Positions 46,079 to 46,705 of a stretch of DNA of 47,091 bases are shown here, in pieces (the first letter of the stretch is position 1; each line of letters opens with the position of its first letter). Below the pieces are notes generated by a model. The model made no database searches. It was not told where the DNA came from and saw nothing but the letters and a program-made list of their open reading frames with translations. The DNA comes from Escherichia coli (GTDB lineage: Bacteria > Pseudomonadota > Gammaproteobacteria > Enterobacterales > Enterobacteriaceae). The stretch lies in NCBI RefSeq assembly GCF_003334255.1, contig NZ_QOWU01000042.1; one strand, given 5' to 3'. Both the position numbers and the translations under genes were made by a program.

Positions 46079-46705
46079 TTATTCACCAGACTCTAATCTT
46101 TTTTCTCTTTTCTCATCTCTCCTTTTTATTGCCAAATCGTGTTGCTCTTGCAGATACGTGCGTTCTTCGTTTCTATCGCTTGAAGTATATACGTCTGCTT
46201 TTACTTTTTTAGCTCCTTGTGCAATAGGTTTCCAATCCTCTCTTATACCTTTAATTTGTTCTGCAATTTGCGTCAATGGGCTTCTCGCTCCTAGATAACT
46301 TATTCCTTCAAATGTCGCCATGTCATACACATATTCATTTGTTTCTCTATCGTTTGATTTAGGTTTGCTTGCCCAGCTTATATTAATATTATAAATTTGA
46401 TCTTTGATTTGTTCATACTTACAGAGATTGCTGGTAAGTGATTGCCCATTTTTTAACACGCTTACCTTACTAAACGGAATCTCACTTTTTTCTCTATGCT
46501 CCGCATTTACTAGTGGAGGATCAAACACAACCTCAACATTATAGGCAGGTGCGTTCCCTGTATTAGCAATGTTAATATCAAAGTAAAAAGCGGCCCAAGG
46601 GTTTGGCTCAAGTGTTACAACTATATGGGGTTGAGCTGATGCGTCAACCATTCTTTTTGTCTCGTCTGCTCTGAAGTGGTGAAGTGGTTTACTGAATTTG
46701 GCCAC
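46079..46705 (-). CDS. orphan hypothetical protein (208 aa as tracked); 5' end runs into the IS end
   Basis: ORF with a GTG start at 46703..46705; its first 9 codons (MAKFSKPLH) lie inside the terminal repeat region of the adjacent IS. First native ATG would be MVDASAQ at 46649..46651. Confidence 0.5.
   Translation of the reverse strand: MAKFSKPLHHFRADETKRMVDASAQPHIVVTLEPNPWAAFYFDINIANTGNAPAYNVEVVFDPPLVNAEHREKSEIPFSKVSVLKNGQSLTSNLCKYEQIKDQIYNINISWASKPKSNDRETNEYVYDMATFEGISYLGARSPLTQIAEQIKGIREDWKPIAQGAKKVKADVYTSSDRNEERTYLQEQHDLAIKRRDEKREKRLESGE

What the first reader, a model, noticed from the sequence alone, without database searches (positions are those of the whole stretch)
46079..46705. 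Second orphan ORF whose 5' end is supplied by the IS terminal repeat
The tracked ORF starts at a GTG inside the IS left end, and its first 9 codons (MAKFSKPLH) are encoded by the reverse complement of the terminal repeat region. So either the IS inserted into the gene and removed its native N-terminus and promoter (leaving a fusion), or the gene really starts at the internal ATG (MVDASAQ, 46649..46651) and the IS landed about 20 bp upstream, where an outward-reading IS-end promoter could drive it. The product is unknown and ends in a lysine/arginine/glutamate-rich tail.
Basis: partly seen in the sequence, partly recalled or inferred. Interest (0 to 1): 0.55.

Follow-up and report, generated by a model that had tools for sequence, protein, structure and literature searches.

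The report
IS-truncated remnant of a prophage gene
The ORF is the leftover of a membrane-anchored mobile-element gene that lost its first 38 codons at an IS911 junction; its reach to a GTG inside the IS is a chance by-product, so the finding is ordinary.

Summary
The 208-codon ORF (46079-46705, minus strand) starts at a GTG inside the left end of an IS911-type element whose tip lies at 46680.

The ORF is not an orphan. It belongs to a widespread family of unknown function (phrog_11802; named DUF8453 in RefSeq; "putative lysogenic conversion protein" of phage P2-EC53). Full-length members are about 230 aa.

Five independent comparators stop aligning with the window at exactly base 46670. They include an intact allele at the same leuX site in E. 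coli E2348/69 and a colinear island in Enterobacter roggenkampii. The native first 38 codons, which encode the N-terminal transmembrane helix, are therefore missing, together with the native start, ribosome-binding site and promoter.

The internal ATG (46651) that RefSeq uses as the start is a conserved internal methionine of the family. The first 12 codons of the long ORF come from the IS end, an extra 8-bp copy of the IS tip and junction bases.

No outward promoter was found in the IS end. The missing 5' part is not on the far side of the IS, so a deletion or an IS-IS recombination made the junction.

Verdict: an ordinary IS-truncated pseudogene, of low interest.

The parts
46079..46670 (-). 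Retained native coding sequence of the DUF8453/phrog_11802 gene. It corresponds to residue 39 to the stop of a ~234-aa full-length protein: the beta-sandwich core and the two C-terminal helices.
   Evidence: blastn to Enterobacter L003, E2348/69 L013, P2-EC53 L004, R18C L005 and M37H L014 ends at 46670 in every case. Protein alignment. phrog_11802 E=2.4e-81, aligned to profile positions 45-228 of 230.
46649..46651 (-). Internal ATG that RefSeq/PGAP uses as the start (190-aa WP_000227281.1). In the family it is a conserved internal Met (about residue 44-45).
   Evidence: annotation; query residue 1 aligns to about residue 40-46 of homologues.
46671..46679 (.). Junction filler: one base (C) plus an extra tandem copy of the IS tip (TGAAGTGG). 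It belongs neither to the native gene nor to the canonical IS.
   Evidence: Other copies of the IS match only from 46680. Homologues have AATAG... at this position.
46680..47014 (+). Left 335 bp of an IS911-type (IS3 family) element: the left inverted repeat and the 5' part of orfA (ATG 46754), cut off by an IS30 insertion.
   Evidence: Alignment with K-12 IS911B, pattern search, boundary.
46703..46705 (-). GTG inside the IS left end: the first start codon of the longest ORF. No Shine-Dalgarno sequence lies at a usable distance.
   Evidence: The upstream sequence ...GAGGTGAGCATATCACCTCTGTTCAG-GTG was read directly.
47015..47091 (-). End of IS30 inserted into IS911 orfA. Its transposase gene is on the minus strand and stops at about 47022, so it reads towards the remnant ORF.
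   Evidence: K-12 annotation of IS30D and ATCC 11775 annotation.
46049..46069 (.). 8-bp-stem hairpin between the two convergent genes, a possible two-way terminator.
   Evidence: -14.3 kcal/mol, z = -2.4. The consensus terminator scan did not call it.
45206..46030 (+). Neighbouring intact gene for an AbiJ-NTD4 domain protein (PADLOC defence candidate PDC-S32), convergent with the remnant.
   Evidence: PDC-S32, E=5.6e-104; RefSeq name.
44588..44672 (+). tRNA-Leu(CAA) leuX, the integration site of the island that carried both genes.

Best explanation
The ORF is a 5'-truncated, most probably dead, remnant of a mobile-element cargo gene of the DUF8453/phrog_11802 family.

Native protein. The intact protein is about 230 aa. 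It has a short acidic N-terminus and one transmembrane helix (about residues 13-35). Basic residues follow the helix, so the rest of the protein is predicted to be cytoplasmic. Then come a seven-stranded Ig-like beta-sandwich with an invariant NTGNA motif and two long C-terminal helices, the second highly charged.

Where the family occurs. The gene rides in the Z/fun cargo slot of P2-like prophages and in islands integrated at tRNA-Leu. Its function is untested. My best guess for the intact protein is a membrane-tethered phage-exclusion or lysogenic-conversion factor.

What happened here. The window strain carried an island at leuX of the kind seen intact in Enterobacter roggenkampii and E. 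coli E2348/69: leuX, a variable cargo slot (here AbiJ-NTD4), the DUF8453 gene, a resolvase, a DEAD-box helicase and more. An event at the left end of an IS911-type element removed everything from codon 38 of the gene outwards and joined the rest to the IS911::IS30-yjhV-fec block that K-12 also has. That event was either an IS-mediated adjacent deletion or recombination between two IS911 copies.

Consequence. The remnant lacks its promoter, ribosome-binding site, start codon and membrane anchor. The reading frame happens to stay open for 20 codons into the junction and IS end, where a GTG gives the 208-codon ORF.

Shown versus inferred. Shown: family membership, the exact breakpoint, loss of the TM helix, the IS boundary, and absence of the missing part across the IS. 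Inferred: the order and type of the DNA events, that the remnant is not a working gene, and the native function.
For: Homologues:
- 131 database proteins were found. Those outside the E. coli leuX junction are typically 225-245 aa and carry the extra N-terminal ISAFAALLTAVATFFLWRVTRLLADETKRM.
- An exhaustive search found 321 cluster representatives. Query residue 1 (the ATG form) aligns at about residue 40-46 of the hits.
- phrog_11802 profile positions 1-44 are absent.

Breakpoint: all five DNA comparators end at window 46670. Enterobacter L003 is colinear with the window from 44501 to 46670 at 89.9% identity, through the tRNA, the spacer, AbiJ-NTD4 and the gene.

Intact alleles: a full-length allele sits at the same leuX site in E2348/69. 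Full-length copies in the Z region of P2-like prophages occur in 105 of 5426 E. coli genomes.

Transmembrane helix: 73 of 80 homologues have a TM-grade hydrophobic 19-mer starting near residue 13, with 0.36 K+R before it and 2.8 in the 15 residues after it. The best 19-mer in the window protein scores only 0.78. The structure model has pLDDT 95.

IS boundary: 46680.

Beyond the IS: the right side of the IS is yjhV/fecE, as in K-12, and does not hold the missing 5' part.

Expression signals: there is no promoter-like site on the minus strand in 46680-47091. The IS911 outward -35 is in the right end (PMC9330008).

Further decay: IS600 sits inside the remnant in the O26:H11 lineage, where PGAP flags it as a pseudogene. 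Other IS-fused N-termini occur in database variants P0029, P0034 and P0037.
Against: - The remnant frame is intact and 99-100% identical across 463 complete E. coli genomes, and RefSeq annotates it as a 190-aa protein. This is expected for a recent event in a species with about 1-2% divergence, but it does not exclude use.
- dN/dS against the Enterobacter allele is 0.098. With dS about 1.15 this reflects history before the truncation and says nothing either way.
- The IS30 transposase gene reads towards the remnant and stops about 8 bp from the IS30 tip. No terminator-like site lies in between, so read-through transcription is possible.
- No expression data could be consulted.
Confidence: 0.85

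Rival explanations
1. The anchor-less protein is still made, either as the 208-aa IS-fusion from the GTG or as the 190-aa form from ATG 46651. Transcription would come from read-through out of the IS30 transposase gene or from an unrecognised promoter. The product would act as a soluble version of the native protein.
For: The frame is intact in 463 genomes. The IS30 transposase gene is on the same strand, 310 bp upstream, with no terminator-like site between. The beta-sandwich and C-terminal helices are complete.
Against: Neither start has a usable Shine-Dalgarno sequence (read). No promoter-like site lies in the IS end. The membrane tether kept by 73 of 80 homologues is lost. The remnant is disrupted again by IS600 in O26:H11. 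Conservation is explained by recency.
Confidence: 0.1
2. The gene is complete as RefSeq annotates it (190 aa from ATG 46651), and the IS merely landed about 20-30 bp upstream of an intact short gene.
For: The PGAP call WP_000227281.1. An ATG is present at 46651.
Against: The six codons upstream of the ATG (ADETKR) are homologous, in frame, to residues 39-44 of all full-length relatives. Homology runs up to 46670. 190-aa forms are seen only with this IS junction.
Confidence: 0.03
3. The junction was made by a plain IS911 insertion into the gene with no further rearrangement, and the 5' part survives on the other side of the IS.
For: IS insertion is the simplest way to split a gene. IS911-type elements are active in E. 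coli, with up to 24 places per genome.
Against: To the right of the IS911::IS30 composite lie yjhV and fecE, exactly as in K-12, where the same composite has a different left neighbour (yjhE). No 3-bp target duplication can be identified. The right tip of the IS is itself degenerate.
Confidence: 0.03

Closest known systems
P2-EC53 ORF1, 'putative lysogenic conversion protein' (CAD54906.1, AJ512682), and phage R18C gp24: phrog_11802 / DUF8453
   Same: Same protein family. About 69% aa identity over the retained 192 residues. Same beta-sandwich motif NTGNAPAY and the same charged C-terminal helix.
   Different: The phage copies are full length (230 aa), with their own ribosome-binding site, start and transmembrane helix, and sit in the P2 Z region between the tail-fibre assembly and tail-sheath genes. 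The window copy lacks residues 1-38 and sits at leuX next to an IS. The family's function has not been tested in any paper I could find.
Intact alleles in tRNA-Leu islands: E. coli E2348/69 WP_000569068.1 and Enterobacter roggenkampii P0040
   Same: Same chromosomal site (leuX) and same orientation. The Enterobacter island is colinear with the window up to the breakpoint and has the same convergent AbiJ-NTD4 neighbour.
   Different: These islands continue with a resolvase and a DEAD/DEAH helicase. In the window that part is replaced by IS911::IS30-fec. E2348/69 has a different gene in the AbiJ slot.
K-12 KpLE2 IS911B::IS30D composite (insO/insI3)
   Same: Same IS911 copy with IS30 inserted at the identical position, and the same right-hand neighbours yjhV-fecE.
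   Different: The left neighbour in K-12 is yjhE. The K-12 tip reads TGAAGTGGCAC, whereas the window reads TGAAGTGGTTT preceded by an extra TGAAGTGG.
IS-end promoters that switch on neighbouring genes (hybrid or outward promoters of IS3-family and other IS)
   Same: An IS end abuts a promoterless coding sequence in the right orientation for read-out.
   Different: In IS911 the outward -35 is in the right end and the left end carries an inward -10 (PMC9330008). Here the left end faces the ORF, and no promoter-like site was found.

Membership tests
DUF8453 / phrog_11802 ('P2-EC53 lysogenic conversion protein' family) | Significant match to the family profile across the globular part | tested here: met
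   phrog_11802 E=2.4e-81, residues 1-184 of the 190-aa form to profile positions 45-228 of 230. Hits. RefSeq names a full-length E. coli copy DUF8453.
DUF8453 / phrog_11802 ('P2-EC53 lysogenic conversion protein' family) | N-terminal single transmembrane helix followed by basic residues | tested here: not met
   Present in 73 of 80 homologues and absent from the window ORF, whose best 19-mer hydropathy is 0.78. Lost at the breakpoint 46670.
DUF8453 / phrog_11802 ('P2-EC53 lysogenic conversion protein' family) | Conserved beta-sandwich core with the NTGNA motif, and the C-terminal SxDR motif plus charged helix | tested here: met
   Invariant N48, G50, N51, A52, D177 and R178 in alignment A1. 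Fold.
IS911-type element (IS3 family) | Terminal inverted repeat starting TGAAGTGG and an orfA of the IS911 type | tested here: met
   About 98% identical to K-12 IS911B over the 335 bp present.
IS911-type element (IS3 family) | Complete, potentially mobile copy (intact orfAB and both tips) | tested here: not met
   IS30 interrupts orfA at 47015. In carrier genomes the transposase is frameshifted and the right tip reads ...GACCAC|AACAG (no terminal CCACTTCA found); the expected CCACTTCA tip is from my own recollection of the IS911 ends.
IS-driven activation of a neighbouring gene (outward or hybrid promoter) | Outward-facing -35, or a full promoter, in the IS end that faces the gene | tested here: not met
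   No promoter-like site on the minus strand in 46680-47091. Published IS911 anatomy places the outward -35 in the right end. Transcription itself is not testable with these tools.
Two-gene defence module with AbiJ-NTD4 (PADLOC PDC-S32) | Conserved adjacency of the two genes across unrelated contexts | tested here: not met
   Adjacent only in the E. coli and Enterobacter leuX-type islands. Absent next to the family member in P2-EC53, R18C, M37H, E2348/69, Klebsiella, Citrobacter, Caulobacter and Rhizobium. The ORF has no PADLOC hit.

The most novel reading that the evidence does not exclude
The intact DUF8453/phrog_11802 family could be an uncharacterised phage-exclusion or abortive-infection effector. 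It is a single-pass membrane tether with a cytoplasmic Ig-like domain and a charged helix, and it is carried in the P2 Z/fun slot, in tRNA-Leu islands and on mobilisable elements. In that case the anchor-less E. coli remnant, present in about 9% of complete genomes, might still be expressed by read-through from IS30 and might modulate such a system.
Probability: 0.08. Interest if true: 0.4.

Novelty: already known. Interest (0 to 1): 0.12.

Why it matters
The practical value is for annotation.
- RefSeq lists this remnant in hundreds of E. coli genomes as an ordinary 190-aa 'hypothetical protein' (WP_000227281.1). It should be flagged as a 5'-truncated pseudogene of a DUF8453 gene.
- It documents how the leuX island was eroded by IS911-associated deletion.
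- It marks the intact family as untested cargo of P2-like prophages. [quoted passage not shown]

Tried and rejected
- Pfam-A on the ORF and on an 80-member family alignment gave no significant family. The tool's Pfam copy evidently predates DUF8453.
- PADLOC gave no hit for the ORF. NCBIfam gave only a sub-threshold SecE match.
- A PDB sequence search found only coiled-coil or HMG-box noise on the charged helix.
- Foldseek against the PDB returned only generic Ig-like sandwiches, none at E<=0.001 (TRAP-beta, archaeal pilins, the KirBac cytoplasmic domain). AFDB50 returned only uncharacterised relatives. No functional inference is possible from these.
- dN/dS was tried as a test of relaxed selection. 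It is uninformative because dS against the nearest intact allele is saturating (1.15).
- The Rousset et al. P2 hotspot paper covers the old/tin locus, not the Z slot, so it gives no test of this gene. Literature searches for P2-EC53 and DUF8453 found nothing.
- IS911 'targeted' insertion next to IR-like sequences was considered as the origin of the extra TGAAGTGG. I rejected it as a firm explanation because the IR-targeted events described for IS30, to which IS911 targeted transposition is likened, give inverted IRL-IRR junctions, whereas this is a direct tandem copy.
- A remainder of a second IS911 copy beyond the right end was looked for and not found.

Full report
**Context.** The window is an E. 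coli chromosome segment. Its right end reads, in order:
- yjgR;
- an internally deleted ahr;
- tRNA-Leu(CAA) leuX at 44588-44672;
- a 530-bp spacer;
- an intact gene for an AbiJ-NTD4 protein at 45206-46030 (+);
- the ORF in question at 46079-46705 (-);
- the left 335 bp of an IS911-type element (46680-47014), cut by an IS30 whose tip is at 47015.

The 2-kb block with both genes is present, at 80% coverage or more, in 467 of 5426 complete E. coli genomes. The exact ORF-IS junction is in 463 of them.

**Observation.** The longest ORF does start at a GTG (46705-46703) inside the IS.
- The IS boundary is firm. K-12 IS911B begins TGAAGTGGCAC..., and the window has TGAAGTGGTTTACTGAATTTGGCC from 46680.
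- Other copies of this IS variant elsewhere in E. coli match the window at 100% identity only from 46680 rightwards.
- Immediately to the left lies a second tandem TGAAGTGG (46672-46679) and a C (46671). These occur only at this junction.
- The non-native part of the ORF is therefore 12 codons (MAKFSKPLHHFR), not 9.
- The frame closes 8 codons upstream of the GTG. An open stretch of 20 codons that contains a start codon is what chance gives.

**What the ORF is.** It is not an orphan.
- A word-indexed search found 131 relatives, and an exhaustive HMMER search found 321 cluster representatives at 50% identity.
- The ORF matches phrog_11802 at E=2.4e-81.
- RefSeq now names a full-length E. coli copy 'DUF8453 domain-containing protein'. 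UniProt-style names trace back to 'putative lysogenic conversion protein' ORF1 of phage P2-EC53.
- Relatives outside this junction are about 225-245 aa. They carry an extra N-terminal segment with consensus ...ISAFAALLTAVATFFLWRVTRLLADETKRMVDAS.
- The ATG at 46651, used by PGAP for the 190-aa WP_000227281.1, corresponds to the M of ETKRM, a conserved internal residue. In the exhaustive search, residue 1 of the ATG form aligns at about residue 40-46 of the hits.

**Breakpoint.**
- The window was compared by blastn with five loci. Every alignment ends at exactly 46670. The loci are Enterobacter roggenkampii (L003), E. coli E2348/69 (L013), P2-EC53 (L004), phage R18C (L005) and a P2-like prophage of strain M37H (L014).
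- L003 is colinear with the window from 44501 to 46670 (89.9% identity over 2175 bp), that is, through the tRNA, the spacer, AbiJ-NTD4 and the gene. It then continues with the first 113 bp of the gene, a resolvase and a DEAD-box helicase.
- E2348/69 has a full-length 230-aa allele at the same leuX site with the same resolvase and helicase beyond it, but a different gene in the AbiJ slot.
- These loci serve as IS-free alleles. They show that native residues 1-38, the start codon, the ribosome-binding site and the promoter region are missing from the window.

**What was lost.**
- In 73 of 80 family members the first 70 residues contain a TM-grade hydrophobic 19-mer starting near residue 13.
- On average 0.36 K+R precede it and 2.8 K+R lie in the next 15 residues. 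By the positive-inside rule this predicts an N-out/C-in tether with a cytoplasmic body.
- The window protein has no such segment.
- An AlphaFold2 model of the full-length Enterobacter protein is confident (pLDDT 95.2).
- Fold searches gave only generic Ig-like sandwiches in the PDB and uncharacterised relatives in AFDB50.
- Pfam, PADLOC, NCBIfam and a PDB sequence search gave nothing usable. The native function remains unknown.

**Genomic habitats of the family.**
- Full-length copies sit alone in the Z region of P2-like phages, between the tail-fibre assembly and tail-sheath genes. This is the slot that holds Z/fun in P2 itself; that point rests on my own knowledge.
- Full-length 5' regions occur in 105 of 5426 E. 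coli genomes.
- Elsewhere the gene lies among integrases, resolvases, MobA/TraG genes or a TIR-domain gene.
- AbiJ-NTD4 is adjacent only in the leuX-type islands, so the two are independent cargo rather than a system.
- This habitat pattern is the basis for my guess that the intact protein is a phage-exclusion or lysogenic-conversion factor. That guess is an inference, not a result.

**How the junction arose.**
- To the right of the IS911::IS30 composite, carrier genomes have yjhV-fecE, exactly as in K-12. There the same composite, with IS30 at the identical position, has yjhE on its left.
- The missing 5' part of the gene is therefore not across the IS, and a plain insertion is excluded. The junction needs either an IS-mediated adjacent deletion or recombination between IS911 copies within the leuX island. 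Which of the two happened is inferred, not shown.
- The extra TGAAGTGG is unexplained. It is a direct copy, not an inverted one, of the IS tip. IR-targeted insertion, as described for IS30 and likened there to IS911 targeted transposition, gives inverted IRL-IRR junctions, so it is not the product expected from that route.

**Is the remnant used?**

Against use:
- Neither start has a good Shine-Dalgarno sequence (sequence read).
- There is no promoter-like site on the minus strand anywhere in 46680-47091. The two sites the scan found lie inside the ORF, and their number is below the shuffle expectation.
- The published anatomy of IS911 places the outward -35 in the right end and an inward -10 in the left end (PMC9330008).
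- The tether kept by nearly all relatives is gone.
- In O26:H11 an IS600 sits inside the remnant, and PGAP calls it a pseudogene there. Other IS-fused variants exist in the protein database (P0029, P0034, P0037).

For possible use:
- The frame is intact in hundreds of genomes.
- The IS30 transposase gene reads towards the remnant with no terminator-like site between.

Neutral:
- dN/dS against the nearest intact allele (0.098 at dS 1.15) reflects pre-truncation history.

I put 0.85 on 'truncated remnant made by an IS911-associated deletion or recombination'. Within that I hold about 0.7-0.75 that it is not a working gene.

**Verdict.** The thing itself is an ordinary IS-truncated pseudogene that is already present in public annotation, where it is mislabelled as a complete hypothetical protein. 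Interest is low.

Noticed in passing
window 44258-44434 (between yjgR and leuX): ahr (NADPH-dependent aldehyde reductase) carries an internal deletion of about 930 bp that leaves a 58-codon in-frame stub. This exact junction occurs in only 3 of 5426 complete E. coli genomes: strains G1/2, G6/7 and G8, of which at least G1/2 came from the faeces of a healthy person in Germany. The window is therefore from a close relative of those strains.
   Followed up: partly
window 46672-46679: An extra direct tandem copy of the IS tip (TGAAGTGG) lies just outside the canonical IS911 left end, only at this junction. Two other insertions of the same IS variant have GGTGGT or TGG directly before the tip (L019, L020), which hints at a target or repair bias. 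The origin is unexplained.
   Followed up: partly
window 45206-46030: An intact AbiJ-NTD4 gene matches the PADLOC defence candidate PDC-S32 (E=5.6e-104). In related strains its 3' end is hit by IS1A (G1/2) or by an IS3-family element (EPSSH018), and IS1414 sits in the intergenic gap in VG12A2. The 2-kb islet is therefore an IS sink.
   Followed up: partly
L013 (E. coli E2348/69) 7700-9126 versus window 45137-46162: At the same leuX island position, E2348/69 has a different 182-aa hypothetical gene in place of AbiJ-NTD4, while both flanks are homologous. This is a cassette-exchange slot typical of defence hotspots.
   Followed up: no
window 44501-46670 versus L003: Mosaic divergence from the Enterobacter island: the spacer is 95.5% identical and AbiJ 93.6%, but the remnant gene is only 73-85% identical. 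This suggests recombination within the island.
   Followed up: no
L006/L007 4645-4911, L009 4714-4923, L011 4645-4932, L012 4430-4990: In Klebsiella, Citrobacter, Caulobacter and Rhizobium the full-length family member is preceded on the same strand by a small gene with no Pfam hit (69-95 aa), or by DUF6680 (186 aa). In Rhizobium it is followed by a CAP12-PCTIR TIR-domain gene. A possible operon partner was not examined.
   Followed up: no
L001 8440-8470 and L002 15760-15810: The right end of this IS911 copy ends ...GTTGACCAC|AACAG. A terminal CCACTTCA, the reverse complement of the left tip, is not seen. Together with the IS30 insertion and a frameshift, this makes the element immobile.
   Followed up: no
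L015 (E. coli O26:H11 11368): In O26:H11 the IS911 next to the remnant is not interrupted by IS30, whereas K-12 has the IS30-interrupted copy with a different left flank. The history therefore involves recombination among IS911 copies. Another island (primase-helicase gene) lies between leuX and the AbiJ spacer there.
   Followed up: no
window 46620-46647 (minus strand): A promoter-like site (TTGACG-16-TATAGT, 10 of 12) lies just inside the ORF, 4 nt after ATG 46651. It falls in native coding sequence, the count of such sites is below chance expectation, and it is probably meaningless.
   Followed up: no
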